Below, piece by piece: positions 4,490 to 62,600 of a DNA stretch of 64,000 nucleotides. A program made the position numbers and the translations under genes. Numbering within the stretch: the first letter of the stretch is position 1; the number at the start of each line of letters is the position of its first letter. The stretch lies in the NCBI GenBank assembly GCA_022340905.1, contig JAJDNB010000014.1, positions 1,227 through 65,226 on the forward strand, given 5' to 3'. The notes beneath the pieces are model-generated. The model was given only the letters and a program-made list of their open reading frames with translations. It was not told the DNA's origin and did not search any database. The stretch comes from Deltaproteobacteria bacterium (GTDB taxonomy: Bacteria > Desulfobacterota > Syntrophobacteria > BM002).

Positions 4490-5030
4490 AACGCAGCATA
4501 GGGCACAATTCAGCAGACAGCTTGCAGCTGACAGCAGGCAGTCAGCGCTGCGCGTCATTTGCCTTCGGCGTCATTAGGTCACTACGCTGCGCTGTCATTG
4601 GTTGTAAAAGGTAGGATCAGGTTTCAGGTGTCAGGTGTCACATGACATTAGAAGCTCACGGCTCATAGCTCACAGAAGTTGGTCAATCGGTCGATTGGTC
4701 AAAAGGTTAATTCGTAGAAATCGTAGAAGGCGTAGAAGGTAAGCGGTCAATTACTTGCCCATTTGACCAATTTCCTATTCGACTAATTGACTAAACGTTA
4801 GGGATTGTGGATTGCGGATTTAAAATCAAGGAGACAGGAGACAGGGGTCGGAGGTCAGAGGTCGGAGGTCAGAGGACAGCAAGACAAATCGTCAAAAGGT
4901 CAAATGGTTAATTCGTAGAAACCGTAGAAGTCGTAGAAGGTAAATGGTGAACGGTCAATTACTTGCCTATTTGACCAAGTTCCTATTCGACTATTTGACT
5001 AATTTCCTAATTGACCGGCTACTGGATTAT
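4490..5030. repeat. Mosaic intergenic repeat block between pdxS and glgP
   Basis: A roughly 100-bp unit (ggtcaaa-ggttaattcgtagaaa-cgtagaag...cggtcaattacttgcc-atttgaccaa-ttcctattcgacta-ttgactaa) is internally duplicated around a core gggattgtggattgcggatttaaaatcaaggagacaggagacag-ggtcggaggtcagagg...gacagcaagacaaatcgtc. The block also contains the gcgtcatttgccttcggcgtcatta element at 4509..4615. Confidence 0.6.
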
Positions 5031-9552: not shown

Positions 9553-9559
9553 AGGAAGC

Positions 9560-9890
9560 GAGACGGGAGGTCGGGCCCTTCGACCCATTCGACCCATTCG
9601 ACTTCGCTCAGGGCAGGCGAGACGAGCTTAGAACTTAGAGGTCAGAGGTCTGAAGTCAGAGGTCCGAGGGCAGCAGTTCAAGGTTCCAAGTTTCAAGTTT
9701 CAAGTTAGGACAGGTTATGAAATGGAGTTGCCGTATAACGAATAACGGATAACGAATAACATCTCGTACTGTTTACCGTTTACCGCTCACCGTTTACGCC
9801 TTGACGATTTAACTAATTCCCTAATTCTCTAATTTTCTAATTACCTACCGGTTCACCATTTACCGCTCACCCCATATTTTGAAAATCTGT
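9560..9890. repeat. Mosaic intergenic repeat block
   Basis: Contains ccattcgacccattcgac, ggtcagaggtctgaagtcagaggtccgagg, caaggttccaagtttcaagtttcaagtt, ataacgaataacggataacgaataac, tttaccgtttaccgctcaccgtttac and ctaattctctaattttctaattacc. Confidence 0.6.
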
Positions 9891-9896
9891 GAATTT

Positions 9897-10571
9897 TTAA
9901 AAACGGAATGACACTCCAGTCAAGAAATAATGTGTGCTCAGAGGAGTCTCCACTTTCACCCTGGTGCGGGGTTCAAACCCAAGAATCCATTCCTCCGTTT
10001 CGTCTTTATACTTAATTTTATAGTGTGTATAGCGATACTCCCCAAACACACCGAAATTTTCGTGGAATTGCCACAAAAGACCCGCCCGAAAGTCCCATCC
10101 ATTTTCGAAACCCCAATCGGAGATTTTCTCCGATACTGTCGGTCTAAAATCTACGTCCATATCATAGTAGATTAGGCTCGGACCAACAGCCAGGTAGGGC
10201 TGAATCTTGCCGTCTGGATAACTATCACTAATCAGTAAAGGGTATCGGAGCATAAGTAAGAATGAAAAGGGAACTATGGAGAAGTCAACTTTTTCGGAAT
10301 CTGCTTGGAAATAGGACACATCACACGCCACGCCCAGATAGGGAAAAAGATATGGATAGTAGCCAAGTCGACCTCCAAAGGTAAATGAGGTATCGTAGCT
10401 TGTTTTGCCTGAAGCGCTTTCGTCAGGAAAGTGACTCTCAACCTCTATCTTTGAACCGTCAGTAATTGCTGCCCCGAGGTAGAGATCCGTGAAGAACTCG
10501 GCTCGTAAAATGGCAGGGAACGCGCACAAGAGAGCGAACACAGTAACTGACAGGAGCAGTTTGTATCTCAC
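9897..10571 (-). CDS. Outer-membrane beta-barrel protein (OmpW/OmpA-like porin family)
   Basis: Has a signal peptide (MRYKLLLSVTVFALLCAFPAILRA). Alternating aromatic/hydrophobic beta-strands run through the protein, and the C-terminus ...GVSFRF ends in Phe, an OMP signature. Confidence 0.6.
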   Translation of the reverse strand: MRYKLLLSVTVFALLCAFPAILRAEFFTDLYLGAAITDGSKIEVESHFPDESASGKTSYDTSFTFGGRLGYYPYLFPYLGVACDVSYFQADSEKVDFSIVPFSFLLMLRYPLLISDSYPDGKIQPYLAVGPSLIYYDMDVDFRPTVSEKISDWGFENGWDFRAGLLWQFHENFGVFGEYRYTHYKIKYKDETEEWILGFEPRTRVKVETPLSTHYFLTGVSFRF

Positions 10572-12631: not shown

Positions 12632-13165
12632 TTACGGTGTAACTTCGAAATCGAGACTCTTCAGGACCTTGCCGTCTGCGTCCAGTACATCCACACGCCA
12701 GGCACCAAGTTCATGTGCCTGAATGATCTTTGAGCTGAAGGTTCGCCAGCTGGCTGCATTCACCGCCAGCTCCACTCTGGCCCGCTCCGTCCCGTCAAAG
12801 TACCACACATGGGTTACATGTGTCGGAGACTCGGCACCCATGATTTGGGTGAAACAGTATAGTTTGCCCACATCGACCGTGAAACTGTTGCCGGAGTCCA
12901 CAGGTTCCCGATCCACCACATCTTTACAGATAGCTGCCACAGAAACCGTTAGCTCTGGGGCCATCTGCTCCTGCATTGCAGGTTCTTGCATCTCCCCAGT
13001 GGGTTGCTCTGACTTCATGGCGGGTTCTTGCATCTGGCCTGTGGGTTGTTCTGCCTTCATGGCAGGTTCTTGCATCTGGCCACTAGACTCCTGGGCCTGA
13101 CACACACCGTACAAACCGATAAACATGACTGCCAGGATTAAAACGGGAATAATTAGCTTCTTCAT
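12632..13165 (-). CDS. Secreted protein with three 15-aa tandem repeats and a C-terminal DUF2914-like domain
   Basis: Has a signal peptide. Three repeats of QMQEPAMK(A/S)EQPTG follow, then a conserved C-terminal domain (HVWYFDG...AW). The DUF2914 assignment is tentative. Confidence 0.6.
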   Translation of the reverse strand: MKKLIIPVLILAVMFIGLYGVCQAQESSGQMQEPAMKAEQPTGQMQEPAMKSEQPTGEMQEPAMQEQMAPELTVSVAAICKDVVDREPVDSGNSFTVDVGKLYCFTQIMGAESPTHVTHVWYFDGTERARVELAVNAASWRTFSSKIIQAHELGAWRVDVLDADGKVLKSLDFEVTP

Positions 13166-21789: not shown

Positions 21790-22130
21790 ACACAGATTTA
21801 CACAGATATTTATCTAAACAACAAGCCACAATCTCAGGTCGATTCGTCGATTGGTCAAATCACGCAAGCATAGAGCATAGGGTCAGACGACTGAGGACAG
21901 CAGGGTTACGCGGCGAAAAAGGCGGAGATCGGAGGTCAGAGGTCGGAGGTCAGAGGGCAGAAGACAGAGGACAGACGACAGAAGGTCAAATCGTCAATAT
22001 GTCAAATAGTCAAATGGTTATGAATGACCACGATGACTAATTAACTATTTGCCTAATTTCCCAATTGACCAATCGACCATTTGACTAATTCTCTCATTCC
22101 CTAATTCCCTACCTGCTTGTCGCTTACTGT
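21790..22130. repeat. Mosaic intergenic repeat block including an inverted copy of the roughly 100-bp conserved element
   Basis: Contains catagagcatagggtcagacgac, ggtcagaggtcggaggtcagagggcagaagacagaggacagacgacagaaggtcaaatcgtcaatatgtcaaatagtcaaatggtta-tgaatgaccacgatgac-aatt...gcctaatttcccaattgaccaatcgacc. That last run is the reverse complement of 39471..39570 and 57137..57240. Confidence 0.65.
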
Positions 22131-26880: not shown

Positions 26881-27165
26881 CCTTGTGAGCCGCATCGTTC
26901 CACTTTGGGTCTGGTTTTGGCACCTTGGCGGCTAGTCCAGGTTGCCGTGACAGTCATTGAGCCAGTTCTCTCGCGTCACTCTCAATGCTATGTTTGTCGA
27001 CTCCGCTGCGGAGACCTAATAACACCCTCCTACTACAATGAATAGGCCGTTGTTGGCTGACGAGCCTTTCACGTACCATAGATAAGAAGTCCATGTCAAA
27101 TAGCAATTCGGAAAGATCCTCCCAATTCTGCCCGCTGAGTTCCATTCCACAGGGTAATAGGAAAA

Positions 27166-30832: not shown

Positions 30833-30894
30833 ACAGCAATTCTCCTGACTTGTCTCAGAGCGGGATGTCTTTATAGCTCACAACAGCTTTGATG

Positions 30895-30990
30895 TGACCT
30901 GTGGGATTTAGCATGGGGCATAGAGCATAGGGCATAGAGTAAAAAACCTATTTCGCAATTTTAAATCTCGCATCTCAGATCTCACATCTC
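30895..30990. repeat. Left arm of an inverted repeat flanking scpA
   Basis: The sequence gcatggggcatagagcatagggcatagagtaaaaaacctatttcgcaattttaaatctcgcatctcagatctcacatctcg has its reverse complement at 31815..31900, near-perfect over about 70 bp. A third related copy lies at 44870..44975. Confidence 0.7.
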
Positions 30991-31024: not shown

Positions 31025-31771
31025 CTAGTGCGGGCCTGTCGCTATGTCACCATCAGCAGCAAGATAGAGCCGGATGATACCACTGGGTTGATGCTGAAAA
31101 GCCCGGACCATCCGCAAGCGCACCAGTTCAAGGATTGACAGAAAAGTAAGGATTATGTCCATCTTCCTAACTTTTCCCTGAAAAAGTTCGTGGAAGGTTA
31201 TACTGCTCACTCCCGACAAAACCTCCATAACTTGGGCTATTCTGTCCCTGAGCCGCATACCCTCTACATTCACTTCCATGAAATCTCCCGGTTCCGCCCT
31301 TTTTAAGACTTCTTGGAGGGCATTGACCAGGGCAAACAGGCCCACCTCCGCAATTTCCTCGCTTCCTTCCGTGCCCCACAACTCTTCGGTGGGGATGTTT
31401 CGCACATAGACATCCCGATCCAACTGCAGACTGTTTGCAAGAATTTGAGCGGCCTCTTTTATCTTGGCGTACTCCAGCAAGGGCCTCACCAATTCCATGC
31501 GCGGATCTTCCTCCAGGTCCTCTTCCTCAGAGCCAACCCGCGGCACCAGCATGCGTGATTTGATATAAGCCAAAGTGGCCGCCATTTCCAAAAACTCTCC
31601 AGCAACATCTATGTTGAGGCTTCTCATCATGTCCAGGTACTTCAGGTATTGGCCCATAATGAGTGCTATAGGGATGTCGTAGATGTCCACTTTGTTCTTT
31701 CTGATCAAATGGAGTAGCAGATCCATGGGACCTTCAAAAATTTCCAGTTTTATCTCATAATCTTGCAGCAT
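31025..31771 (-). CDS. scpA: Segregation and condensation protein A (kleisin)
   Basis: ScpA family: N-terminal FEGPMDLLLHLI and a winged-helix C-terminus. Length is 248 aa. Confidence 0.85.
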   Translation of the reverse strand: MLQDYEIKLEIFEGPMDLLLHLIRKNKVDIYDIPIALIMGQYLKYLDMMRSLNIDVAGEFLEMAATLAYIKSRMLVPRVGSEEEDLEEDPRMELVRPLLEYAKIKEAAQILANSLQLDRDVYVRNIPTEELWGTEGSEEIAEVGLFALVNALQEVLKRAEPGDFMEVNVEGMRLRDRIAQVMEVLSGVSSITFHELFQGKVRKMDIILTFLSILELVRLRMVRAFQHQPSGIIRLYLAADGDIATGPH

Positions 31772-31799: not shown

Positions 31800-31915
31800 C
31801 TAAACTTATGTGTGATCTGAGATCTGAGATTTAAAATTGCGAAATAGGTTTTTTACTCTATGCCCTATGCTCTATGCCCCATGCTAAATCTCACATCTCA
31901 GATCACAGATCGGTT
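31800..31915. repeat. Right arm of the inverted repeat flanking scpA
   Basis: The sequence tgtgatctgagatctgagatttaaaattgcgaaataggttttttactctatgccctatgctctatgccccatgctaaatctcacatctcagatcacagatcg is the reverse complement of 30901..30985. Confidence 0.7.
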
Positions 31916-34604: not shown

Positions 34605-34800
34605 GCTCTTATTGTTTAACTAAGCATAGGGCATAGCGATAAAATTTCGAAATTCGAATTTCGAAATTCGAAATTAAAAATCCCCAATCCTCAATCCCAA
34701 ATCCCATCTTCTCCCTATTACAACAAATGGCAGCGAAGCGTAATGACCTAATGACGCCGAAGGCAAGTGACCTGCAGCGCTAGCTGCTCTACGCCCGCGG
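34605..34800. repeat. Mosaic intergenic repeat block including an inverted copy of the gcgtcatttgccttcggcgtcatta element
   Basis: Contains catagggcatagcg, aaatttcgaaattcgaatttcgaaattcgaaattaaaaatccccaatcctcaatcccaaatccc, then gcagcgaagcgtaatgacctaatgacgccgaaggcaagtgacctgcagcgc. That last run is the reverse complement of 4545..4612 and 47371..47430, and it overlaps the xerD stop. Confidence 0.6.
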
Positions 34801-35703
34801 GTGGTACTTCCTGTGCACCTCTCTCAGTCTCTCCCTGGCCACATGAGTGTAGATCTGCGTGGTGCTGATGTCGGCGTGTCCGAGCATCATTTGCACTGAA
34901 CGCAAATCGGCCCCACGCTCGAGGAGATGGGTGGCAAAAGAGTGCCTCAAGCTATGGGGGGTCAGATCTTTATTGAGACCAGCTTCACGTCCATATTTTT
35001 TGATTAACTTCCAAAACCCCTGCCTGGTCATTGACGTTCCTCGATTGGTCACAAAAAGGATCTCAGTCATCCTTCCTTTTAATAAGCGAGGGCGGGACTC
35101 CAACACATAGCGCCGCACGGCCTCCGTAGCGGCCTCACCCGCTGGAACGATGCGTTCTTTGGATCCTTTTCCCAGCACAACCAGAAAACCGACCTCGAGG
35201 TTGACCCTCCCCAACGTGAGGCTGACCAACTCTGAAACTCGCAGTCCGGTTCCGTAGAGAAGCTCGAGCATGGCAGCGTCTCTCTGACCCAACGGCAATC
35301 TGGTGTCGGGGCGAACCAGAAGTCGTTCTACTTCAGCAACACTCAACACAGACGGAAGCTGGCGCCGGAGTCGGGGAGAGGTTAAGTTTGCCACCGGACT
35401 CTCTTTCAGGTGGCTGTCCCGTACCATAAATTTAAAAAAGCCACGGAGGGCCGAAAGTAGTCTCGCCCTGCTTCTAGGGGCCAAACCCTCTTTCTGGGCG
35501 TGGGAAAGGAAACCCATGATCTCGGAGTAACCAACCTGACTCCAACTACTCATCCCCTGCTCTCTGAGGTAATTCATAAATTTTAGCAAATCAGCACTGT
35601 AGGAGGCTCGGGTATTAGAGGCAAGACCTTTTTCTACGGTGAGGTAGTCCAAGTAAAGATCAAGCTGGGTATCCATGGTCATTGGTTGTTCCGCAGTCAA
35701 CAT
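34789..35703 (-). CDS. xerD: Tyrosine recombinase XerD/XerC (chromosome dimer resolution)
   Basis: Phage-integrase fold with the catalytic block HSLRHSFATHLLERGADLRSVQMMLGHADISTTQIYTHV. Co-located with scpAB. Confidence 0.88.
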   Translation of the reverse strand: MLTAEQPMTMDTQLDLYLDYLTVEKGLASNTRASYSADLLKFMNYLREQGMSSWSQVGYSEIMGFLSHAQKEGLAPRSRARLLSALRGFFKFMVRDSHLKESPVANLTSPRLRRQLPSVLSVAEVERLLVRPDTRLPLGQRDAAMLELLYGTGLRVSELVSLTLGRVNLEVGFLVVLGKGSKERIVPAGEAATEAVRRYVLESRPRLLKGRMTEILFVTNRGTSMTRQGFWKLIKKYGREAGLNKDLTPHSLRHSFATHLLERGADLRSVQMMLGHADISTTQIYTHVARERLREVHRKYHPRA

Positions 35704-35819: not shown

Positions 35820-36000
35820 GGTTCGAGGGAGAGAAGGCTCTGGTCAATTGGTCGATCTGTCAAATGGTCAAAAGGTTAAATGGTTAATTCGTAGAAATCG
35901 TAGAAATCGTTAAAACCGTTGAAATCGTTCAAGTCGTGAATGGTAGATAATAAACGGTCAATTACTTGCCTATTTGACCAATTCCCTATTTGACTACTTG
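35820..36000. repeat. Mosaic intergenic repeat block
   Basis: Contains ggtcaattggtcgatctgtcaaatggtcaaaaggttaaatggttaattcgtagaaatcgtagaaatcgttaaaaccgttgaaatcgttcaagtcgtgaatgg...cggtcaattacttgcctatttgaccaattccctatttgactacttgacgacttgac. Confidence 0.6.
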
Positions 36001-36014
36001 ACGACTTGACTTGC

Positions 36015-36183
36015 TGTCCTCTGTCCTCTGTCATCTGTCGTCTGTCATCTGTCATCTGTCATCTGTCGTCTGCCATCTGTCGTCTGTCATCTGTCATCTG
36101 TCATCTGTCATCTGTCATCTGTCGTCTGTCATCTGTCGTCTGTCATCTGTCGTCTGTCATCTGTCCTCTGTCATCTGACCTCT
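36015..36183. repeat. Microsatellite: about 21 tandem copies of the 8-mer gtc(a/g/c)tctg
   Basis: gtcctctgtcctctgtcatctgtcgtctgtcatctgtcatctgtcatctgtcgtctgccatctgtcg... located in the divergent xerD/nrnA intergenic region. Track ORF 36006..36209 (SSVICRLSSVICHL...) is its translation. Confidence 0.85.
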
Positions 36184-36312
36184 GGCCTCCATGCCCCATG
36201 CTAACATAGGAAAAATGCGCTTGACCTGGGCCCTCGCTTATGGCACTGTTGAGTAGTTGTCGACACAATCTTCAACTTGCTGATATATTTAGAAAAATAG
36301 AGAGACTACGAC

Positions 36313-37335
36313 ATGGCCGTCAACAATCCGCGACTCCGCTCCGCAAAACCTCGATCTATCAGCGAAAACCTCAACAAGCTCTTGAAACTCTTTGATTCCA
36401 AAGACCGTGTTCTCATTACTATTGATGCCGACCCTGACTCTTTGGCATCCGCCATGGCCCTAAAACGGCTCCTGTGGCGCAAAGCTCAATCAGTCACCAT
36501 TGCTCACTTCAATGAAATTGTTCGGTTCGACAACGCCACTATGGTTCGGCTTTTAAAGATCCCTTTGGTCAAGCTTCAACAGGTTGATCCCAAAGATTTC
36601 TCCAAAGTCCTTCTTGTCGATAGCCAACCCCACCATCATGAGGCCTTCGGTGATTTTACTTACGACGGCGTCATAGATCACCATCCCGTAACCATGCCTG
36701 TGGAAGCTGAATTTGTGGACATCCGGCCCAACTACGGCGCGACCGCCAGCATAATGACCGAATATTTGCGTTCTGCCAAAATTCGCCCATCCAAGAGTCT
36801 TGCCACCGCCCTTCTTTATGCCATCCGGGTGGACACTCACAATTTTGAGTTACAGGCATTGGAAGAGGACGTGAAGGCCTTTCGCTATATTTTCCCCTTG
36901 GCCAACATGAACTTGCTGCGGAAAATAGAGATGTCCGATATGGGGATCAAAGATCTTAGATATTTCCAGCAGGCTTTGGATAACAAGCGGATTACAAAAG
37001 GCAAGATCTTCTCCCATCTCGACACTGTTCACTCAACAGATATCCTCGTATTGGTTGCGGATTTTTTTATGAGATGTCACGAGGTGGCCTGGACAATAGT
37101 TTCAGGAGTTTGCAACAAAAACCTGGTGGTGGTGATACGCAACGATGGGTTTAGAAAAAACGCCGGAAACTGGGCGATTAAGGCCTTCGGCAAGCTGGGA
37201 AGTGCCGGTGGTCATCGGGCCATGGCTCGCGCTGAAATCCCTATGGCCAATCTCGATTCCCACCTCACTAAAGCCGAGGTTTCTAATCTCGGCCGCTTTG
37301 TAATCCGCCAGTTTAAGAAGAGCGTTGAGAGCTAG
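36313..37335 (+). CDS. nrnA: DHH-family phosphoesterase NrnA (bifunctional oligoribonuclease / pAp phosphatase)
   Basis: Has DHH motifs (ITIDADPDSLASAMAL; DHHP) and a DHHA1 C-terminus (GSAGGHRAMA). Length is 340 aa. Confidence 0.8.
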   Translation: MAVNNPRLRSAKPRSISENLNKLLKLFDSKDRVLITIDADPDSLASAMALKRLLWRKAQSVTIAHFNEIVRFDNATMVRLLKIPLVKLQQVDPKDFSKVLLVDSQPHHHEAFGDFTYDGVIDHHPVTMPVEAEFVDIRPNYGATASIMTEYLRSAKIRPSKSLATALLYAIRVDTHNFELQALEEDVKAFRYIFPLANMNLLRKIEMSDMGIKDLRYFQQALDNKRITKGKIFSHLDTVHSTDILVLVADFFMRCHEVAWTIVSGVCNKNLVVVIRNDGFRKNAGNWAIKAFGKLGSAGGHRAMARAEIPMANLDSHLTKAEVSNLGRFVIRQFKKSVES

Positions 37336-38576: not shown

Positions 38577-39464
38577 TTGTGTTATGAAAGGCCCATGAAT
38601 TCTCCCAAACTCATTGCAGCGCAGCGTGAATTTGACAGGTTTATCGAACAGATTAGCAGGGTAAAGTATTTGGCTGTGGACTCGGAGTCAAATAGCTATT
38701 TTGCCTACAGACCGCGCATCTGCCTCATCCAAATTTCCGCAAACAACACAGACTTTATCCTCGATCCCCTGACCCTGAAAGACTTCACTGGCCTGGGTCG
38801 CATTCTCTCAGACCCTTCTGTGGAGAAAATAATTCACGCTGCTGAAAACGACATTATTGGCTTCAAAAGGGACTATCGTTTCCAGGTAATTAACATCTTC
38901 GACACCTCGGTAGCTGGTCGCCTGCTGGGTCGCAAAAGATTGGGGCTTGCCACCATTCTCTCCGAGGAATTCGGCATTACCGTGGACAAAAAATATCAGC
39001 GCTGCAATTGGGAAAAGCGTCCTCTTAACCCAGAGCAACTCTGTTACGCCCAGCAGGACACACATTTTCTCAAAAAATTGCGGGACCTACTCCACAACCA
39101 GCTCGTAGAACGCAATCTTTGGCACCAGGCAAAGCGGGATTTTGCTCGATTGGAAAAAGTTCGGGTCAGACCTCCGAGAGAGTGGGATCCAGATGGTCAC
39201 CTCCGTCTAAGGGGTGCAGAGCAATTGTCCCAAACCTCTTTGGGAGTTCTCAAAGAGCTGTTTGCCCACCGGGAGCATTTAGCCCGAAAAACCAACAAGG
39301 CTCCCTTTCGGATAATGAACAACGAATTTATGGTGAGGTTGGCTAGGGAGATGCCGGAGAGGAAAAGCGACCTGCTGAGGATTAGAGGACTGCCTGCCCC
39401 CTTCAAGGGAAAAAAGTCAGCTCAACTCCTTCGAGTCATCAAGAAGGGAAAATCGGTTAATTAG
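38577..39464 (+). CDS. rnd: Ribonuclease D (3'-5' exoribonuclease with HRDC domain)
   Basis: DEDDy exonuclease motifs (LAVDSESNSYFAYRPRICLIQIS; YAQQDTHFL) and a C-terminal HRDC domain. The start may instead be the internal ATG at 38595 (MNSPKL). Confidence 0.85.
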   Translation: MCYERPMNSPKLIAAQREFDRFIEQISRVKYLAVDSESNSYFAYRPRICLIQISANNTDFILDPLTLKDFTGLGRILSDPSVEKIIHAAENDIIGFKRDYRFQVINIFDTSVAGRLLGRKRLGLATILSEEFGITVDKKYQRCNWEKRPLNPEQLCYAQQDTHFLKKLRDLLHNQLVERNLWHQAKRDFARLEKVRVRPPREWDPDGHLRLRGAEQLSQTSLGVLKELFAHREHLARKTNKAPFRIMNNEFMVRLAREMPERKSDLLRIRGLPAPFKGKKSAQLLRVIKKGKSVN

Positions 39465-39467
39465 GAA

Positions 39468-39700
39468 ATTGGTCGATTGGTCAATTGGGAAATTAGGCAA
39501 ATCGTTATTTCGTCATCGTGGCATTCATAACCATTTGACTATTTGACATATTGACGATTTGACTTGCTGTTGTCTGACGTCTGACCTCTGACCTTTGGGC
39601 TGGACGACTTCTACGATTTCTACGACCTGCTGAATTCTCTAATTCCCTAATTCTCATTTGTCCTCCGGACTCGGGTCCGGAAGGTGGGGTCGCTTGACAT
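39468..39700. repeat. Conserved roughly 100-bp intergenic element (plus-orientation copy) with flanking mosaic
   Basis: ggtcgattggtcaattgggaaattaggcaaatcgttatttcgtcatcgtggcattcataaccatttgactatttgacatattgacgatttgacttgctgt, followed by tgtctgacgtctgacctctgacc and cgacttctacgatttctacgac. Near-identical copies are at 57137..57240 and 47584..47645. A reverse-complement copy is at 21984..22080. Confidence 0.7.
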
Positions 39701-46429: not shown

Positions 46430-47346
46430 GCCCCAGGGTAAAGGTGAAAACCCCTGACAAGTCCGCTCCAACTGTTGGTGCCCTTTTGATGCTGGCTGCC
46501 GCCTTACTCTTCGCGGTCCTCGACGGTCTCATCAAGCTTCTCGGCCCACCGTTCCGGGTGTGGGATATAGCCTTCTACCGATTCGCCTGCGGTCTGGCTG
46601 TTTTACTGCCTATTTTAGGCTGGAAGGGTAATCCATTCTCGGGTCATAATCGAAGGCTATTAGTAGTCAGGGGAATAACCGGGTGCTGTGCTTTCTTGGC
46701 ACTCGTTGCAGCCATTCGTCTAATTCCAATTTCCACCGCCCTAGTCCTTTTTTTTTCTTTTCCCGCTTTCGCCGCCTTTTTCTCGCCTCTGATCTTTAAG
46801 GAGGCCATTTCCCGAGATGAAATTTTGTTTGTCCTTGCTGCTTTAGCCGGAGTAGCCGTTCTCTTCGATTTTAGTCTGCACTCGGCTCTTTTGGGGCAAG
46901 CATTGGCTGTCTTGGGCGGCAGTTTCGCAGGCCTGACCATCTCTATTATCAAAAAGTTGAGGGAGACAAACGGTTCGGCAGTAATCTATCTTTACTTCTG
47001 CCTCCTTGGTGCCGGTATCTCATTGCCGCCATTTATTGCCAACCCGCAGGTTCCCAGCGTTCCGGTGGAATGGCTCATGCTCGGTGGGATTGTCTTCTCG
47101 GCCTTGGCCGCCCAACTCCTGATGAATCAGGGATTTCACTATTGCAAGAGCTGGGAGGGCGGCCTTTTCCTCATGGCTGAAGTAGTCTTCACTTCAACGC
47201 TCGGCATACTCCTTCTCGGTGAACCGGTGACTTGGCGTTTTTGGGTGGGAGGGGCTATGGTTCTCGGCAGTGCTGTGGCTCTCAACCGAGGCAATGCCAG
47301 AAGGATTTCCTACCGGGGCGTGGGGCACAATTCAGCAGGCAGCTGA
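46426..47346 (+). CDS. DMT superfamily transporter (EamA family, 10 TM)
   Basis: Two EamA repeats, polytopic hydrophobic. Length is 306 aa. Confidence 0.8.
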   Translation: MSPRVKVKTPDKSAPTVGALLMLAAALLFAVLDGLIKLLGPPFRVWDIAFYRFACGLAVLLPILGWKGNPFSGHNRRLLVVRGITGCCAFLALVAAIRLIPISTALVLFFSFPAFAAFFSPLIFKEAISRDEILFVLAALAGVAVLFDFSLHSALLGQALAVLGGSFAGLTISIIKKLRETNGSAVIYLYFCLLGAGISLPPFIANPQVPSVPVEWLMLGGIVFSALAAQLLMNQGFHYCKSWEGGLFLMAEVVFTSTLGILLLGEPVTWRFWVGGAMVLGSAVALNRGNARRISYRGVGHNSAGS

Positions 47347-47680
47347 CAGCGGGCAGCAGGCAGATAGCACTAAGCGTCATTTGCCTTCGGCGTCATTAAG
47401 TCACTACGCTGCGCTGTCATTTATTGTAAAAGGAGGAAGCCCAAGGTCAGAGGTCAGAGGAGAGATTGCGGATTTCGGATTGTGGATTGCGGATTTAAAA
47501 TCAAGGAGACAGGAGACAGAAGTCAGAGATCAGAGGACAGCAAGTCAAATCGTCAATATGTCAAATAGTCAAATGGTTAAATGGTCAATTGGGAAATTAG
47601 GCAAATCGTTATTTCGTCATCGTGGCATTCATAACCATTTGACTAGTTATCTAATTGACTGGCTACCGGATTTTTTGATT
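47340..47680. repeat. Mosaic intergenic repeat block with copies of three conserved elements
   Basis: At 47341..47430 it carries the gcgtcatttgccttcggcgtcattaagtcactacgctgcgctgtcatt element. It then has ggtcagaggtcagagg, gattgcggatttcggattgtggattgcggatttaaaatcaaggagacaggagacag, and gacagcaagtcaaatcgtcaatatgtcaaatagtcaaatgg. It ends with the roughly 100-bp element core ggtcaattgggaaattaggcaaatcgttatttcgtcatcgtggcattcataaccatttgact. Confidence 0.65.
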
Positions 47681-47685
47681 GGGAA

Positions 47686-47928
47686 TTATTTTTCTCTATT
47701 GATCTTATTGTAGAGAGCAATCTGCTCTTGAAGAGAAAGTTTCTCTTCAGATTTCCTTCCAGTTCCTTTACAAACCTGGCAGCGAGAAGGTGAGCACTCC
47801 TGACAGAAATGGCAATCCGGGCAAGGGTGCTTCTTAGATCCTTCCCTGCAGCAGGGATCGAAGAAAAGGCCCTGATACATTGGCAGACGCTGAAATTTCT
47901 TTTCCGAGTCGGGCACCGTTTCTCCCAA
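47686..47928 (-). CDS. Small cysteine-rich protein with a DnaJ CR-type zinc-finger-like motif
   Basis: CQVCKGTG matches CxxCxGxG. Further Cys clusters are CCREG and CPDCHFCQEC. Length is 80 aa. Confidence 0.45.
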   Translation of the reverse strand: MGETVPDSEKKFQRLPMYQGLFFDPCCREGSKKHPCPDCHFCQECSPSRCQVCKGTGRKSEEKLSLQEQIALYNKINREK

Positions 47929-52887: not shown

Positions 52888-55800
52888 TTAGAACTTATAG
52901 CGTTCTGCCACTATCCGTTCCACTTCTTCCTCAGAGGGCATAGTGTCACGATACCCAGCCTGGTATTGATTTCTGAGCCACCTAAATAGGCTCACTGTTT
53001 CATTGACCAGGACTATTTCGGGGATATCCTCACCTTCATGGGTCTTTATATGGCGATTGTACTGCCCCAACATACTTACCACATCGTAAAAGGTTGCCGG
53101 CTCCCGCTTAATTTTCCTCTTGAAAGATCTCCCTTCGGTCGGATAAATGGACTCGGGCTCAGGGTTGGCCGAAATGTCCAGCCGATGAAATGGCCTTCGC
53201 ACTGCCACCTGCCATTTCCTCGACTCCACCATCATCCGTGACAGGAGAGGACCGGCCCAATCGTGGGTTTGGTGGCCCTGGGGACACACCGAAAAAAATT
53301 CCACCACTGATGGCCCGCTATAGGCAATGGCCTCCTTTAAAATCTTTATGGCGTAAAAGGGATTGTCAATACTCAGTTTGGCAGCATAGACATGAGAAAT
53401 TCCCATGGCCTGGCTAACAATCCTTCGATGGAGAGTGTTTTTGCCGCCATACTTCTGGCCTATGGGAGAGGTGGACCGGTCACAGCCGTAACGGGTGGCA
53501 CCGGATTTCTGAGCCCCCGTGTTCATATAGCCCTCATTATTATAGATTATCCAGGTAATATCATAATTTTCGCCAAGAGCGTAGTTGAAGGGGCCATTGC
53601 CTATATCGTAGATGGCACCGTCGCCGGCAAAGACTATTATCTTGCTCAGCACATTGTTAAAACCGTTGATGTAAGCTTGGTCCAGACTAAATTTAGCCCC
53701 CAGAGCTGCAGCAGAGGCTGTGCCGAAGCCGTAGTGGCCTGCCTGATAAATGCGGTCGTTGAAAGGATTTGCCAGCTCCGAAACTTCACTGCAGCCGGTG
53801 GCGGTAACAGTGTAAATATTGAAGCCGTAATCCAGCATGTGATCGATAGCTCGTCGGCTCTGTTCCGACAGAACCTTTATTCCCTGATAGAAGGTTGCTA
53901 TCCCCTGGGGATTATTGCGCAGGGATTCAGCGGCGAAGAAAGACAACAACCCAATTGTTCCCTCGCTGCAACCTGGACACAGGGTGTGTCTACCCGGGTA
54001 AAGTTTCGAGAATACGAAAAGAACCTGATGGTTGAGGGCCATCTGGTTCACATAAGGAGCTGCCTCGAGTGTCATGTCCAAATCTTGGTATTTTTCAGGG
54101 AGAAAATCAGCTTCGCTCGCCTGAAGCTTGTCAACCATTGTCAGTGCATCGACTGGGCACACCTGGGTACAGATGGCGCAGCCTTTACAGGCTTCGGGAA
54201 TGACGTTTATGTTCATGGCGAACCTATCCCAGGGGATTCCTCTGGGCGGTTTCTTGAATACCCGAAAGTAAGGTTTGGCACCATCTGGGATGGGCTGATC
54301 GGTAACGGTGGAATATAGTGCAGAGTCCGGGCAGGATGCAGCGCAGAGACCGCAGGAGGTACATTTTGATGGGTCGTACCTCGGAAGTTGAGTTCCTACG
54401 TGACTCATATCCCGGTACCTGCTGGTGGCAGCAGGCACCACGGAGAGAAACTTGTCCCATGGGACCTTTTTCCCTTCCACGATGGGCTGGACTATATGGT
54501 CATGGAAGGTCTGCTTGTAGTTATCTATAATGTTCACTGGTTTGATGGTGCCCATTTCATCCTTTTCTGTGAGGGAGACAGGAAGTCCAGCTGCCCTGCG
54601 CTTCTGTCCAAAGTTTTCCGGCTCTGCCACCTGATAGGGCAGGCAGGTTGTATCAACACCAACTTCGGAGGAAGAGCCGGTAGTTGCTAGAGAAGCTCCA
54701 TATCTAAGAAGAGCAATGTTGGACTCAATTACCTCTCTGCCCTTTTTAACTCCCATTTTTTCTTCAAAAACGCTTTTCAAGCGGCTCTCGAACTCGTCCT
54801 CCGGCAAAATGTTTCTTTCTTTATTGATCAATCCCAGCACGGCAGCGCCCGGCAAATTCCGATTCAAATGCTGGAGCGCTGCCCTGGTTGCATCTAGGGC
54901 TACAAGTTGGACTCGGCGATTTTTGATTAGTTTTTTCACCTGGGGAGGAAAAGAGCCCAGGATTTCCTTGGTGGTTCTGGGACTATTGATCACAAAGAGC
55001 CCGTGTGGCTTCAACCCTTCCACATTTTCCTGCAGGATGTGCCCAGAGGCAAACTTCTCGTTGAAGAAAGCCAACACGTCATACTCACTGAGTTGCGAAC
55101 TGTTACGAATGGGGTGGTTGCTTATTCGCATGTTCATGAAAACGGCAGCCCCTTTCCGCGCTGCACCATACCGTGCCCCTGACTGGATATATTTGCAACC
55201 TTCGCCCTTGTCTTGGGCGTAAACCAAGGCGGCTGTCTCCAGCGCTGTTTTCACTCCTTCGGCACCAATGCCGATAAAGTTCATCCCCAGTTCGCGCTCC
55301 TGGTAATCGGGGAGTTCAACCGGCTTCAACGTGTAAGGGCCTTTAATGCCCGCAAAAAAATCCCGGTGGAACCGGCCCCGCTTCCGGTCGAGACAGGCCC
55401 TCATATTCTCTATTACTGCTGCCGCATCATATTTGTTGAAATCTTTGCTTCCCAGACCGTAAACTCCGTGCAGAAGTGTGGGCATATCCTGGCGACCATA
55501 GGTCCGGTGTTCTTTCTTGCCCTCGCGGCCGGCCCTGTTGGAAACTTGCAGAGCGGCCTGGATATCTGCCATGAGTAGCTGATTGTGGGCCGTTCCACTC
55601 CGTTCAAGTACAGTAATAATCTTGGCGTTACGCACACCGTAAGCGAGCTCTTCGTAGCAGGGCGGAGTAAAGAGAACGGGGCGCACCAGACCCACTTTCC
55701 AGCCCTTGGTGTTTCGGTAGTAATCCACCACGTCTTTAACCACACCAGCCGCTGACCCCAAAATCAGAATGACCATGTCGGCGTCTTCGGTGCGGTAGCA

Positions 55801-56757
55801 TTCCACTACCTTGTGGTTGGTATCCAAAATCTGGTTCATCATTTCCATGGCCGCAACAAAACACCTTTTGATAAACCTGTAGGCCAGGTCCTGAGCCACC
55901 TGCCCTTCCATGGTTAGATCCATGTCGGTAAAAGTACCGGCAAGGTATCGCTGCTCAAAGTCAGGCTGGTACAAGCGATTTGCAGATCCCACAAAATAGG
56001 TGAGAAAAGAGTCAGAAAGGAGTTTGATGTTTTCCAAAGCGTGGCTTTTGATAAAACCGTCTCCAATGACCATGCAAGGGAGCATCACCTGCCTGGTCTC
56101 TGCCACTTTGAAGGCAACAGCCATAAGATCGTGCAGTTCTTGATTATCAGCCGACACCAGTTGGGCCCAGCCAGCATTTCTTACACCGTAGAAGTCTGTG
56201 TGGCCACAGTGTATGCTCAGTGAGCCTTTGTTTACCTCACGGGCCATAACGCTCATGACCACCGGCAGACGCTTTCCCGCCACAGAGAAAAGATTTTTTG
56301 TCTTGAGCACCAATCCTTGTGACGACGTATTGTCAGCGTAGCGGCCCCCCTGGCAAGCCATGGCCTCCACTGCCGCAATGGCTGACAGTTCGTCACTAGG
56401 CTGGAAATACATCAGTTCCCGGCCGAAAAGGTTCTCCTTCCCGTCTGCGGCAGCCTTGGCAAAATCTTCGGCAATGGCCGTTGACGGGGTTATGGGATAG
56501 CCGCAAAGCCCGTCTACAACCCTTTCAAACACAGACAGGGCTGCATGATTACCGTCCAACAGGACCTCCTCCCGACGCCGCATTTCCCCGAGGTCCTTTT
56601 TTGAGATGGAGGAAACGTCGAAGTTAAAGATATTTTTGGCATCAAACCTATCCCACTCATTCTTCCAATCGAATTCTCTTTTCTTGGCTTGCTCCAGCCT
56701 GATTTTGTAGAAAGGCAACTGTTTCTGCAAAGCCTCAATATCAACCCTTTGCTCCAT
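52888..56757 (-). CDS. Pyruvate:ferredoxin (flavodoxin) oxidoreductase family 2-oxoacid oxidoreductase, single-chain 1289 aa
   Basis: Domain I begins LDGNHAALSVFERVVDGLCGYPITPST. Two 4Fe-4S motifs are present (CTSCGLCAASCP; CKGCAICTQVCP). The TPP-binding motif is GDGAIYDIG. There is about 65 aa of extra N-terminus and about 200 aa of extra C-terminus relative to a typical NifJ. Confidence 0.85.
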   Translation of the reverse strand: MEQRVDIEALQKQLPFYKIRLEQAKKREFDWKNEWDRFDAKNIFNFDVSSISKKDLGEMRRREEVLLDGNHAALSVFERVVDGLCGYPITPSTAIAEDFAKAAADGKENLFGRELMYFQPSDELSAIAAVEAMACQGGRYADNTSSQGLVLKTKNLFSVAGKRLPVVMSVMAREVNKGSLSIHCGHTDFYGVRNAGWAQLVSADNQELHDLMAVAFKVAETRQVMLPCMVIGDGFIKSHALENIKLLSDSFLTYFVGSANRLYQPDFEQRYLAGTFTDMDLTMEGQVAQDLAYRFIKRCFVAAMEMMNQILDTNHKVVECYRTEDADMVILILGSAAGVVKDVVDYYRNTKGWKVGLVRPVLFTPPCYEELAYGVRNAKIITVLERSGTAHNQLLMADIQAALQVSNRAGREGKKEHRTYGRQDMPTLLHGVYGLGSKDFNKYDAAAVIENMRACLDRKRGRFHRDFFAGIKGPYTLKPVELPDYQERELGMNFIGIGAEGVKTALETAALVYAQDKGEGCKYIQSGARYGAARKGAAVFMNMRISNHPIRNSSQLSEYDVLAFFNEKFASGHILQENVEGLKPHGLFVINSPRTTKEILGSFPPQVKKLIKNRRVQLVALDATRAALQHLNRNLPGAAVLGLINKERNILPEDEFESRLKSVFEEKMGVKKGREVIESNIALLRYGASLATTGSSSEVGVDTTCLPYQVAEPENFGQKRRAAGLPVSLTEKDEMGTIKPVNIIDNYKQTFHDHIVQPIVEGKKVPWDKFLSVVPAATSRYRDMSHVGTQLPRYDPSKCTSCGLCAASCPDSALYSTVTDQPIPDGAKPYFRVFKKPPRGIPWDRFAMNINVIPEACKGCAICTQVCPVDALTMVDKLQASEADFLPEKYQDLDMTLEAAPYVNQMALNHQVLFVFSKLYPGRHTLCPGCSEGTIGLLSFFAAESLRNNPQGIATFYQGIKVLSEQSRRAIDHMLDYGFNIYTVTATGCSEVSELANPFNDRIYQAGHYGFGTASAAALGAKFSLDQAYINGFNNVLSKIIVFAGDGAIYDIGNGPFNYALGENYDITWIIYNNEGYMNTGAQKSGATRYGCDRSTSPIGQKYGGKNTLHRRIVSQAMGISHVYAAKLSIDNPFYAIKILKEAIAYSGPSVVEFFSVCPQGHQTHDWAGPLLSRMMVESRKWQVAVRRPFHRLDISANPEPESIYPTEGRSFKRKIKREPATFYDVVSMLGQYNRHIKTHEGEDIPEIVLVNETVSLFRWLRNQYQAGYRDTMPSEEEVERIVAERYKF

Positions 56758-57039: not shown

Positions 57040-57265
57040 AGTGGTCAGATGGTTAAATCTTCAAACGGTGAGCGGCAAGCAGTAAGCATTTAGTTAATTA
57101 GGACATTAGAAAATTAGGGAATTAGGGCATTAGTCAAATGGTCGATTGGTCAATTGGGAAATTAGGCAAATCGTTAATTCGTCATCGTGGCCATTCATAA
57201 CCATTTGACTATTTGACATATTGACGATTTGACTTGCTGTCGTCTGTCCTCTGTTGTCTGTCTCT
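57040..57265. repeat. Mosaic intergenic repeat block containing a copy of the roughly 100-bp conserved element
   Basis: Contains ggtcagatggttaaatcttcaaacggtgagcggcaagcagtaagc, ttaggacattagaaaattagggaattagggcattag, and the core element at 57137..57240. It ends with gtcgtctgtcctctgttgtctgtc. Confidence 0.65.
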
Positions 57266-57270
57266 TGACC

Positions 57271-62319: not shown

Positions 62320-62334
62320 GCTCACTTCGACAGA

Positions 62335-62600
62335 TACTTCATGGAGGTTAGAGGTCAGAGGTCAGAGGTCAGATGACAGCAGGTAGAACTCAGAGGTCAG
62401 ACATCAGAGATCAGAGGTCAGAATTCAGATTAGAGATGACAGACGATAGCAAGCGGCGTCCTTATCCGTTATTGGTTATTCGTTATTCGGGAGTTTTGCT
62501 CCTGTGAGCTTTGAGCCGTGAGCTGTGAGCTGAATTGACGGTTTCTACGAATTCTACGAATCAACCTTTTGACCATTTGACCGGAGCGTTATCGCTGCTT
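62335..62600. repeat. Mosaic intergenic repeat block
   Basis: Contains ggaggttagaggtcagaggtcagaggtcagatgacagcaggtagaactcagaggtcagacatcagagatcagaggtcagaattcagattagagatgacagacgatagcaagc, ccgttattggttattcgttattcgg, gtgagctttgagccgtgagctgtgagctg, and ctacgaattctacgaatcaaccttttgaccatttgacc. Confidence 0.6.

What the first reader, a model, noticed from the sequence alone, without database searches (positions are those of the whole stretch)
39471..39570. Highly conserved roughly 100-bp element present at four or more loci in both orientations
The sequence ggtcaattgggaaattaggcaaatcgtta-ttcgtcatcgtggc-attcataaccatttgactatttgacatattgacgatttgacttgctgt is near-identical at 39471..39570, 57137..57240 and 47584..47645. 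It is inverted at 21984..22080.

At the 47.5 kb locus the 3' arm also appears upstream as a reverse complement (gacagcaagtcaaatcgtcaatatgtcaaatagtcaaatgg), so the element carries terminal inverted repeats. That architecture is MITE-like or structured-RNA-like. Conservation this high, while the surrounding mosaics drift, suggests recent mobility or functional constraint, for example an sRNA or a protein-binding site.
Basis: seen in the sequence. Interest (0 to 1): 0.7.

Follow-up and report, generated by a model that had tools for sequence, protein, structure and literature searches.

The report
Dispersed frozen octamer-repeat hairpin module
The roughly 100-base repeat is real: it is a fixed run of about 13 diverged 8-base units that forms an imperfect hairpin, sits between genes as part of repeat "mosaics" that fill the intergenic DNA of an uncultured Desulfobacterota lineage, and is copied, flipped and swapped out as a block. 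It is not a classic jumping element, and nothing supports a folded RNA gene.

Summary
Three full copies lie at 39459-39576 (+), 57112-57254 (+) and 21964-22106 (-), and they are 93-97% identical. A fourth copy lies at 47536-47644.

The fourth copy does not carry terminal inverted repeats. It is a minus-strand copy whose 58-nt centre is inverted between the 10-nt repeats AGTCAAATGG and CCATTTGACT. An independent assembly shows the same arrangement.

The element is non-coding. It is periodic at 8 nt and consists of about 13 octamers in one register. It sits inside tandem-repeat mosaics of 7-9-nt units that occupy about two dozen intergenic spacers. The host is a Desulfobacterota (Syntrophobacterales-like) MAG, not a cyanobacterium.

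I found no target-site duplication and no sharp ends. Compensatory pairs numbered 0 of 22. There is no Rfam match and no promoter or terminator.

Seven further family members turned up in other metagenomes. At the orthologous rnd-ycaO spacer the element is present in one relative (86% identity at 4-fold sites) but replaced in three closer ones (about 94%). Its 3' 49 nt are identical between species, against about 7 changes expected.

Best reading: a REP/BIME/ERIC-like extragenic hairpin module built from short tandem repeat units of the cyanobacterial STRR type. It probably spreads and is lost by recombination or template switching within repeat arrays, and one half is constrained. Its function is unknown.

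The parts
39459..39576 (+). Copy 1 (canonical order). It starts in the AATTAG unit that supplies the TAG stop codon of rnd (39462-39464) and lies upstream of the conserved ycaO promoter. It lacks the outer 10-nt repeat AGTCAAATGG.
   Evidence: gene context
57112..57254 (+). Copy 2 (canonical). It lies between the stop codon of an alpha/beta hydrolase gene (minus strand, stop codon 57271-57273) and the nifJ promoter. The 5' arm is 57132-57153 and the 3' arm is 57213-57234.
57192..57240 (+). Constrained 3' half: CATTCATAACCATTTGACTATTTGACATATTGACGATTTGACTTGCTGT. It holds four TTGAC words at 8-nt spacing, each resembling a -35 hexamer. The same 49 nt occur at 39522-39570.
   Evidence: Identical in w39, w57 and the orthologous copy in L195, where 4-fold sites of the adjacent gene are 13.8% diverged. 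It is 88% conserved in L108, whose 5' half is only 59% identical.
21964..22106 (-). Copy 3 (canonical, minus strand), downstream of an AraC-family gene (stop at 21788).
47536..47576 (-). Copy 4, 3' arm plus TTGCTGTC junction, on the minus strand. It ends in the 10-nt repeat AGTCAAATGG (47567-47576).
47577..47634 (+). Copy 4, the 58-nt centre. It is inverted relative to its own arm, so it reads in plus orientation.
   Evidence: The inverted-centre model aligns with score 101 against 54. The independent ENA assembly L190 is identical here.
47635..47644 (+). Copy 4, second 10-nt repeat CCATTTGACT, which bounds the inverted centre.
4872..5011 (-). Diverged relative ('B-type'). It has the same GTCAAAT / ATTTGAC arms but a different centre, a CGTAGAAN array. 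Further B-type copies lie at 4680-4794 and 35859-36010.
   Evidence: nhmmer E 1e-10 to 8e-23; family D11

Best explanation
The element is a non-coding, quasi-palindromic module of a lineage-wide system of intergenic short-tandem-repeat mosaics.

Shown:
- It is a 'frozen' run of about 13 different octamers in a single register (NATTNNNN grading into NNNATTTG). Heptamer arrays flank it.
- It lies between genes, in the spacer between the neighbouring genes' coding and promoter sequences.
- It occurs in both orientations.
- Its two arms can pair into a hairpin or cruciform about 105 nt long.
- One copy has had its centre flipped between 10-nt inverted repeats.
- At orthologous spacers it is present in some close relatives and replaced by other mosaic blocks in others.
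- Its 3' 49 nt change much more slowly than neutral sites.

Inferred:
- Copies are made, inverted and replaced together with neighbouring arrays. The likely process is homologous recombination, gene conversion or replication template switching among similar repeat arrays. Cut-and-paste transposition is less likely.
- The constrained half, with four phased TTGAC words, is probably a recognition site for a protein. That protein could be a nucleoid-associated or regulatory protein, or whatever enzyme propagates the mosaics.
- In the cell the module probably behaves like other extragenic palindromes (REP/BIME/ERIC): a hairpin in DNA or in untranslated mRNA. It is not a gene.
For: - Periodicity: autocorrelation is 0.54-0.56 at lags 8 and 16, against 0.27 expected. 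The octamer register reads straight through the 'unique' core.
- Mosaic context: there are 113 arrays of period 7-9 nt (or multiples) in 64 kb. Density is 43 bp/kb in the window, 26 in 14 close relatives, 7 and 4 in more distant Desulfobacterota, and 2 in shuffled sequence.
- Host: Desulfobacterota MAGs. The source is the contig that encodes MCG6979972.1.
- Non-coding: an indel and stop codons break every frame.
- Hairpin: fold z-scores are -2.2 to -5.4 in 7 of 8 copies. The arms are 85% pairable.
- Flip.
- No TSD, and identity decays gradually into homologous flanking arrays.
- Turnover: L195-L197 carry the element at rnd-ycaO (94/99 to w39, 97/100 to w57). L191, L194 and L192/L193 are closer by rnd sequence but carry other blocks. 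The L191 replacement spans about 190 nt, with both ends inside arrays.
- Strain L001 differs from the window by a block switch at GGCTACTGGATT.
- The hydrolase-nifJ spacer of L200 holds a different hairpin mosaic between a conserved gene end and a conserved promoter.
- Constraint: 0 changes in 49 nt against 6.8 expected, P about 7e-4.
- Family members occur in two other metagenome samples, and several are cut by contig ends.
Against: - Only 4 copies of the source genome could be examined.
- Part of the apparent conservation of the 3' arm among the metagenome copies is forced by the search pattern I used. L108 and L103b are the unbiased ones.
- The identity of the 3' half between lineages could also come from recent transfer or from conversion by paralogues, not from selection.
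- A transposase that leaves no duplication and targets repeat arrays (IS200/IS605 or RAYT type) would produce much the same picture.
- No experimental data bear on hairpin formation, transcription or protein binding.
- Dyad symmetry is common but not universal among the mosaics. Mean fold z is -1.5 against -0.3 for coding controls, with several mosaics near 0.
Confidence: 0.6

Rival explanations
1. It is a non-autonomous mobile element moved in trans by a transposase encoded elsewhere in the genome. It could be MITE-like, or more plausibly REPIN-like or IS200/IS605-like, meaning hairpin-recognising with no target duplication and insertion next to a specific short word inside repeat arrays.
For: - Copies at unrelated loci are near-identical, in both orientations.
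- The hairpin anatomy and size of about 100 nt fit.
- Presence or absence at an orthologous site does not follow the flanking-gene tree.
- One half is constrained, as expected for a transposase recognition end.
- Assemblies break at the element in other samples.
Against: - There is no TSD and no common sharp termini.
- The conserved block is asymmetric about the best inverted repeat, and copy 39k lacks that repeat.
- The 'empty' allele in L191 lacks a larger block whose ends lie in arrays.
- The arms are not themselves palindromic REP units.
- No transposase, RAYT or IS is present in the 64-kb window.
- All flanks are homologous arrays, which recombination explains without a transposase.
Confidence: 0.2
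2. Its main reason for existing is as a functional protein-binding array. The four phased TTGAC words, which resemble -35 hexamers, plus the AGTCAAATGGTTA word, which resembles an IHF site, would be bound by a nucleoid-associated protein, a regulator or RNA polymerase sigma factor. The copies would then be kept by selection at each locus.
For: - The 3' half is frozen between lineages and is the best-conserved part in diverged members.
- Real promoters next to the copies use TTGACA as the -35 box: ycaO has TTGACA-17-TATAAG and nifJ has TTGACA-17-TAGAAT.
- AGTCAAATGGTTA matches WATCAANNNNTTR at 8 of 9 specified positions. This is my own reading of the sequence. The consensus is from general knowledge, and the match is weak.
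Against: - Close relatives do without the element at the same spacers.
- Orientation and distance to the neighbouring genes vary.
- No partner -10 box is present.
- The flanking genes have unrelated functions.
- The IHF-like match is expected by chance fairly often.
Confidence: 0.15
3. It encodes a small structured RNA or a cis-regulatory RNA element.
For: Single-sequence folds are more stable than shuffles. The sequence is conserved among copies.
Against: - RNAalifold gives no consensus structure, at -0.4 kcal/mol.
- 0 of 22 and 0 of 11 pairs show compensatory change, and shuffles reach the observed values.
- Both strands fold about equally, as expected for a DNA palindrome.
- There is no Rfam match, even at E = 1.
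- There is no promoter or terminator.
- Orientation relative to neighbouring genes is not constant.
Confidence: 0.03

Closest known systems
Cyanobacterial STRR (short tandemly repeated repetitive heptamers, Calothrix/Nostoc/Anabaena) and related intergenic heptamer repeats of Nostoc and Xanthomonas (PMC4692102; bioRxiv 10.1101/2022.06.06.494920)
   Same: - Head-to-tail 7-8-nt units fill intergenic DNA and are often closest to a gene end.
- Length and sequence vary widely between close relatives (PMC4692102 reports this for Xanthomonas).
- Some words are shared. GAC(C/T)AAT x8 upstream of Nostoc recO is the complement of the ATTGGTC word here. STRR2 = TTGGTCA is from my memory of Mazel et al. 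1990 and was not checked here.
   Different: - The host is a Desulfobacterota MAG lineage, not a cyanobacterium.
- The element is not an iteration of one unit. It is a fixed order of about 13 different units, copied as a block to several loci, with dyad symmetry and one constrained half.
E. coli REP/BIME and REPIN elements (PMC3116915; PMC3733652)
   Same: They are extragenic, modular ('mosaic') and hairpin-forming. They occur in both orientations, also inside operons, and leave no target duplication. REPINs are about 100-nt hairpins made of two inverted units.
   Different: - The arms here are octamer arrays, not short palindromic REPs with a GTAG or CGTC head.
- No RAYT gene is seen in the window.
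- The boundaries are graded, not sharp.
ERIC/IRU (about 127-nt imperfect palindromes of enterobacteria) and pneumococcal BOX elements (boxA-boxB(n)-boxC). This comparison is from general knowledge.
   Same: The size, the imperfect palindrome, the intergenic and possibly transcribed location, and the modular build with an internally repeated part.
   Different: No sequence relationship has been established. Those elements are not built from a continuous 8-nt periodic array, and they are not embedded in genome-wide heptamer mosaics.
Small dispersed repeats (SDR) of Nostoc punctiforme (Elhai et al. 2008, Genome Res 18:1484; cited in PMC3116915, paper not readable here)
   Same: Very small repeated units are found inside one another and inside larger repeats, in a genome rich in tandem heptamers. 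Mobility was inferred from presence/absence comparisons.
   Different: SDRs are 21-27 nt with a defined small hairpin (from memory). This module is about 100-125 nt, and I could not define an insertion-like boundary.
TAACTGA intergenic direct repeats of marine Beggiatoaceae, some Cyanobacteria and Bacteroidetes (PMC4679880)
   Same: Heptamer direct repeats are abundant in intergenic DNA of a few scattered lineages. Their origin is unexplained.
   Different: That case involves a single heptamer, mostly just upstream of start codons, with 2-6 copies per set. It has no composite, dispersed, palindromic module.

Membership tests
MITE | Terminal inverted repeats at the very ends of the repeated unit | tested here: inconclusive
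   Two 22-nt arms are 85% pairable, but conservation runs beyond them on both sides. The best 10-11-nt repeat is internal and is missing in copy 39k. The supposed TIR at 47.5 kb is an inverted centre.
MITE | Target-site duplication flanking each copy | tested here: not met
   The flanks of the three full copies (ATTA.../...TTGC, CTTC) show no direct duplication.
MITE | Sharp, shared boundaries, and empty sites that lack exactly the element | tested here: not met
   Identity decays gradually into the arrays. The allele without the element (L191) lacks about 190 nt and has about 45 nt of other sequence instead.
MITE | A related autonomous IS with the same ends in the genome | not testable with these tools
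   There is no transposase in the 64-kb window.
REP / REPIN (RAYT-mobilised) | Short palindromic REP unit with a conserved GTAG or CGTC head | tested here: not met
   The arms are direct octamer arrays (GTCAAATN) and are not individually palindromic.
REP / REPIN (RAYT-mobilised) | Two inverted units forming one hairpin of about 100 nt | tested here: inconclusive
   A long hairpin is predicted in 7 of 8 copies, but it follows from opposed arrays and has no covariation.
REP / REPIN (RAYT-mobilised) | RAYT (Y1 transposase) gene in the same genome | not testable with these tools
   None is present in the window. The whole genome was not available.
STRR / long simple sequence repeats | Head-to-tail units of 5-11 nt in intergenic DNA, many arrays per genome | tested here: met
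   Period 8 in the element, period 7 dominant in the mosaics, and 113 arrays in 64 kb.
STRR / long simple sequence repeats | Near-perfect iteration of a single unit | tested here: not met
   The element consists of about 13 different octamers in a fixed order.
STRR / long simple sequence repeats | Host is a (heterocystous) cyanobacterium | tested here: not met
   The flanking genes are closest to Desulfobacterota / Syntrophobacterales MAGs.
BIME / ERIC-type extragenic palindromic mosaic | Intergenic, in both orientations, an imperfect palindrome of about 100-130 nt, with modular variants | tested here: met
   The A-type and B-type centres sit between the same arms.
BIME / ERIC-type extragenic palindromic mosaic | Bound by IHF, gyrase or Pol I, or shown to affect mRNA stability | not testable with these tools
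   This needs experiments.
Structured sRNA / cis-regulatory RNA | Conserved secondary structure supported by covariation | tested here: not met
Structured sRNA / cis-regulatory RNA | Own promoter and terminator, or a constant position relative to a regulated gene; match to a known family | tested here: not met
   contexts

The most novel reading that the evidence does not exclude
This uncultured Desulfobacterota lineage maintains an active and so far undescribed system that writes, copies, flips and exchanges ordered 'sentences' of 7-9-nt units in its intergenic DNA. The vocabulary overlaps that of cyanobacterial STRRs (for example TTGGTC). The frozen 49-nt half of this element, with four phased TTGAC words, would be the recognition site of the protein that drives the system. 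That would give a handle on the decades-old question of how STRR-type repeats arise and what they do.
Probability: 0.15. Interest if true: 0.75.

Novelty: new variant of a known kind. Interest (0 to 1): 0.45.

Why it matters
Tandem heptamer mosaics in intergenic DNA have been known in cyanobacteria since 1990, and neither their origin nor their function has been explained. The same kind of architecture appears here in an unrelated, uncultured Desulfobacterota lineage.

One module is well defined enough to follow through evolution. It is copied between loci. It is flipped at a hairpin. It is swapped out between relatives whose neutral sites differ by about 6%. One half is frozen while the other drifts.

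That makes concrete tests possible. One is a search for a protein that binds the 49-nt half. Others are a whole-genome census and population-level tracking of block replacement.

On the practical side, these repeats break short-read assemblies of this lineage, and they shift gene ends. The rnd stop codon lies in a repeat unit.

Tried and rejected
- Exact scans for the core GTCATCGTGG..CATTCATAACC found nothing. This held in 185,579 species genomes and in the metagenome contigs. The source genome is not among the species representatives, and the cores differ slightly elsewhere.
- Exact-protein look-ups for three window ORFs failed, probably because of start-codon or strain differences.
- A protein search with the spurious ORF that runs through the 47.5-kb copy, meant to fish out other copies, returned only the same locus.
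- nhmmer with the element model found no copy in 68 related genome loci, about 1 Mb.
- A second nhmmer round drifted into generic TTGGTCAA arrays from many unrelated metagenomes and was discarded.
- Coding potential is rejected. An indel shifts the frame, and stops occur in all frames.
- The structured-RNA reading is rejected.
- A promoter or intrinsic terminator within the element is rejected.
- Integron attC site: I saw no RYYYAAC / GTTRRRY ends on reading the sequence. The neighbouring genes are syntenic housekeeping genes. The only tyrosine recombinase in the window (34789-35703) is a syntenic XerC/D-type gene.
- Assembly artefact is rejected. Independent assemblies reproduce the 47.5-kb arrangement and the rnd-ycaO copy.
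- The Elhai et al. 2008 paper on small dispersed repeats could not be read.
- The literature searches I ran found no description of such repeats in Desulfobacterota. That is not proof that none exists.

Full report

Yes. The 30-mer TTTGACTATTTGACATATTGACGATTTGAC occurs exactly four times, on both strands. None is expected in 100 dinucleotide shuffles.

Local alignments give three full copies: 39459-39597 (+), 57112-57270 (+) and 21948-22106 (-). Over a 100-nt core they match 94-97/100. They are the top-scoring dispersed repeats among the window's intergenic spacers.

The 47.5-kb locus carries 64 nt identical to 39478-39541. It also carries 43 nt that are the exact reverse complement of 39528-39570.

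More diverged relatives ('B-type') lie at 4680-4794, 4872-5011 and 35859-36010. They have the same arms and a different centre.

**2. The 47.5-kb copy is a flip, not a terminal inverted repeat.**

I read this locus on the minus strand and compared it with two models. The first was the canonical element. The second was the canonical element with the segment between AGTCAAATGG and CCATTTGACT inverted. The inverted-centre model aligns end to end with score 101. The canonical model scores 54 and matches only the arm.

An independent assembly from another sample (L190, ERZ27283286) covers 46660-47815 at 99.4%. All seven differences lie in the EamA gene and none in the 355-nt mosaic, so the arrangement is real.

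An inversion bounded by short inverted repeats is what recombination or template switching at a hairpin or cruciform produces. That mechanism is from established knowledge, and its application here is an inference.

**3. Anatomy.**

The element is periodic at 8 nt. Autocorrelation is 0.54-0.56 at lags 8 and 16, against 0.27 expected. Written in one register, copy 57k reads:

CATTAGTC AAATGGTC GATTGGTC AATTGGGA AATTAGGC AAATCGTT AATTCGTC ATCGTGGC CATTCATA ACCATTTG ACTATTTG ACATATTG ACGATTTG ACTTGCTG

After that the period changes to 7 (TCGTCTG TCCTCTG ...). The apparently unique core is therefore also part of a diverged octamer array.

The 5' units (GTCAAATG, GTCGATTG, GTCAATTG) and the 3' units (ATTTGAC ...) are the same word in opposite orientation. 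This gives two 22-nt arms. Single-strand folds form a hairpin of about 105 nt with z-scores of -2.2 to -5.4 in 7 of 8 copies. Copy 39k lacks the outer 10-nt repeat and folds poorly, with z about -1.

No reading frame is conserved. A 1-nt indel (GTGG-/C/T-CATTC) and stop codons break all frames.

No promoter-like or terminator-like site lies in any copy. Rfam gives nothing, even at E = 1.

**4. Context: a genome whose spacers are repeat mosaics.**

Tandem Repeats Finder reports 113 arrays of period 7-9 nt (or multiples) in the window. They cluster in about two dozen intergenic spacers. Lag-7 autocorrelation over all mosaics is 0.43, while coding DNA is flat.

The look is that of cyanobacterial STRRs, but the organism is not a cyanobacterium. 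The YcaO-TPR protein next to copy 39k is 80-86% identical to proteins of 'Deltaproteobacteria / Syntrophobacterales' MAGs. The rnd product is identical to MCG6979972.1 from a 67,885-nt MAG contig, evidently the source.

The window genes are ordinary chromosomal genes: pdxST, glgP, an ABC sugar transporter, scpAB, rluB, a CCA/poly(A) polymerase, xerC/D-like, rnd, ycaO, nifJ and a TRAP transporter. There is no transposase.

The mosaic habit is specific to this clade:

| Sequence set | Density of 7-9-nt arrays (bp/kb) |
|---|---|
| Window | 43 |
| 14 syntenic relatives (80-86% aa) | 26 |
| More distant Desulfobacterota (58-61% aa) | 7 |
| More distant Desulfobacterota (45-55% aa) | 4 |
| Shuffled sequence | 2 |

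Many mosaics have dyad symmetry, but not all. Mean fold z is -1.5 against -0.3 for coding controls.

**5. Boundaries and mobility signatures.**

There is no target-site duplication. Identity between copies fades gradually into flanking arrays that are of the same kinds at every locus: AATTAGG-type on the left and TTGCTG + CTGTCNT / CTGACCT-type on the right. Pairs of copies share different lengths, from 125 to 160 nt (183 nt by ungapped extension). These features fail the MITE definition.

**6. Relatives of the element.**

A model of the element found no copy in about 1 Mb of related genome loci. A degenerate arm pattern in metagenome contigs returned at least 120 loci. Most were generic octamer arrays, but seven were true family members with the core: L127 x2, L103 x2, L108 and L140 from sample Ga0316575, and L180 from Ga0209536. 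Three of them are cut by contig ends, which is expected of a multi-copy repeat.

In the 11-sequence alignment the right half is the best-conserved part: TCATAACCATTTGACT ... ATTGACNATTTGACTTGCTG. Identity is 80-89% in the core plus 3' arm, against 59-84% in the 5' arm.

Part of that is ascertainment, because my search pattern lies in the 3' arm. L108 was caught through its 5' arm and L103b was not caught by the pattern at all, and both show the same asymmetry.

**7. Structure test.**

RNAalifold finds no consensus structure, at -0.4 kcal/mol. I then tested two named helices:
- For the 22-pair outer helix, 85% of cells pair, but no pair has a compensatory change, and column shuffles reach or exceed every measure.
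- The same holds for the 11-pair inner helix.

The dyad symmetry is real. Opposed arrays of one word explain it, and nothing indicates selection on a folded RNA.

**8. Orthologous spacers: presence, absence and replacement.**

Near relatives were reached through the rnd protein cluster. The mosaic lies between the rnd stop and the conserved ycaO promoter (TTGACA-17-TATAAG, conserved). Its content is as follows:

| Genome(s) | rnd identity to window | Content of the rnd-ycaO mosaic |
|---|---|---|
| Window | - | Element present |
| L195-L197 | 92.9% nt, 86.2% at 4-fold sites | Element present |
| L191 | 97% nt, 94% at 4-fold sites | Same left and right arrays, but about 190 nt (element plus CTGAC arrays) replaced by about 45 nt |
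| L194 | 97% nt, 94% at 4-fold sites | Short, different mosaic |
| L192 / L193 | 97% aa | Wholly different mosaic |

More distant relatives (L002-L004) also have other mosaics. L002 carries the neighbouring 'sentence' (GAGAATTAG .. GAAGTCGT .. CAGAGGT) in the opposite orientation.

In the window the rnd stop codon TAG lies inside the first AATTAG unit (39462-39464). Relatives with other mosaics end the gene two codons earlier.

At the hydrolase-nifJ spacer, L200 has a different 95-nt hairpin mosaic between the conserved gene end and the conserved nifJ promoter (TTGACA-17-TAGAAT). L199 lacks nifJ altogether.

A strain 99.8% identical to the window (L001) switches to other arrays exactly at GGCTACTGGATT, near 5017.

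Turnover is therefore fast and block-wise, and the breakpoints lie inside arrays.

**9. Constraint.**

The orthologous copies in the window and in L195 match 94/99. All the differences lie in the 5' half.

The 3' 49 nt (CATTCATAA ... TTGCTGT) are identical in w39, w57 and L195. At the 4-fold-site divergence of the adjacent gene (13.8%), 6.8 changes are expected, so P(0) is about 7e-4. The L195 copy is as close to the paralogue w57 (97/100) as to its orthologue.

Either the half is under selection, or the copies are homogenised against an unchanging template, or it was transferred recently. I cannot separate these with the data at hand.

**10. Explanation.**

Shown: the element is a non-coding, 8-nt-periodic, quasi-palindromic block. 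It lies in intergenic repeat mosaics, has been copied to several loci, has been flipped once, is replaced block-wise between close relatives, and has one slowly evolving half.

Inferred: copying, inversion and replacement go through recombination, gene conversion or template switching among similar arrays. The frozen half, with its four phased TTGAC words that resemble -35 hexamers, is a recognition site. The module behaves like REP/BIME/ERIC-type extragenic palindromes.

The main rival is a hairpin-recognising transposase of the RAYT or IS200/IS605 kind acting in trans. It would leave no duplication and cannot be excluded without the whole genome.

**11. Comparison with the known.**

The element works like an extragenic palindromic mosaic element and is built like an STRR array. 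It fails the defining tests for MITE (TSD, sharp ends), for REP (palindromic unit with GTAG or CGTC head), for a pure STRR (single iterated unit, cyanobacterial host) and for a structured RNA.

The literature searches I ran found heptamer-repeat reports for cyanobacteria, Xanthomonas, Beggiatoaceae and Bacteroidetes (PMC4692102, PMC4679880, bioRxiv 10.1101/2022.06.06.494920) but none for Desulfobacterota. I file it as a new variant of a known kind.

**12. Verdict.**

The finding is real and more than chance.

Interest is moderate (0.45). The element itself is a repeat of unknown function. However, it is a tractable marker for an unexplained and apparently undescribed repeat-mosaic system in an uncultured lineage.

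Noticed in passing
whole window; e.g. 4470-5070, 7670-8020, 9550-9900, 35830-36200, 62330-62600: About two dozen intergenic spacers are mosaics of short tandem arrays (periods 7, 8, 9), with recurring ordered 'sentences' such as CGTAGAAGTCGTCC-GGCCC-(CAGAGGT)n-GACAGCAAG-(TCAAATNG)n. Array density is 43 bp/kb here, 26 in close relatives and 4-7 in more distant Desulfobacterota. Some sentences recur at non-orthologous sites in other species: window 9676-9797 matches L004 10264-10385 at 74%.
   Followed up: partly
4538-4614 (+), 47349-47439 (+), 34711-34787 (-): A second dispersed family of about 60 nt: GCGTCATTTGCCTTCGGCGTCATTAGGTCANTACGCTNCGCTGTCATTNGTTGTAAAAGG. It also reads in an octamer register. 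It is 87-95% identical to copies in other species at non-orthologous sites (L002 x2, L010), although genes of those species are only about 75-83% identical. Across species it is better conserved than the element under study.
   Followed up: partly
30887-30987 and 31808-31908: The scpA gene (31025-31771, minus strand) is bracketed by 101-nt mosaics that are 92% reverse-complementary to each other. One lies inside the scpA-scpB operon spacer.
   Followed up: no
36014-36177: The longest pure array in the window is (CTGTCAT)23, 89% matches. It sits next to a B-type relative of the element, in the divergent xerC/D-like / DHH-family gene (36313-37335) spacer.
   Followed up: no
26889-26991 (-): A SAM riboswitch (RF00162) scores 45.2 bits against a gathering score of 44.4, E 4e-7. 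It is the only Rfam match in the window.
   Followed up: no
39462-39464; L192 6860-6864: The rnd stop codon lies inside the first AATTAG repeat unit. Relatives with a different mosaic end the protein two residues earlier (...KGKS* against ...KGKSVN*). The mosaic has therefore overwritten the end of the gene.
   Followed up: partly
52888-56757; L199 703-3053: The 3.9-kb nifJ (pyruvate:ferredoxin oxidoreductase) gene lies between the hydrolase and DUF401 genes in the window and apparently in L200 (a 642-aa ORF cut by the contig end, with a conserved nifJ promoter and start region). It is absent in L199, where hydrolase is followed directly by DUF401. This is a gene-sized indel bordered by mosaics.
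   Followed up: no
around 5017; L001 1-34: A strain 99.8% identical to the window has (CTACTGG / CTACTGA) arrays where the window has the end of a B-type element. The switch point is exactly at GGCTACTGGATT.
   Followed up: partly
12970-13082: A 42-nt tandem repeat (2.7 copies, 84% matches) lies inside the DUF2914 ORF (12632-13165, minus strand). It is a coding repeat, unlike the intergenic arrays.
   Followed up: no
L160 2400-2520 (Ga0207667 contig) and many of L070-L189: Opposed arrays of (AATTGGTC)n and (AATTGACC)n around a short loop occur in contigs from many unrelated metagenomes. The TTGGTC-type octamer or heptamer hairpin is therefore widespread beyond this lineage. The organisms were not identified.
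   Followed up: no
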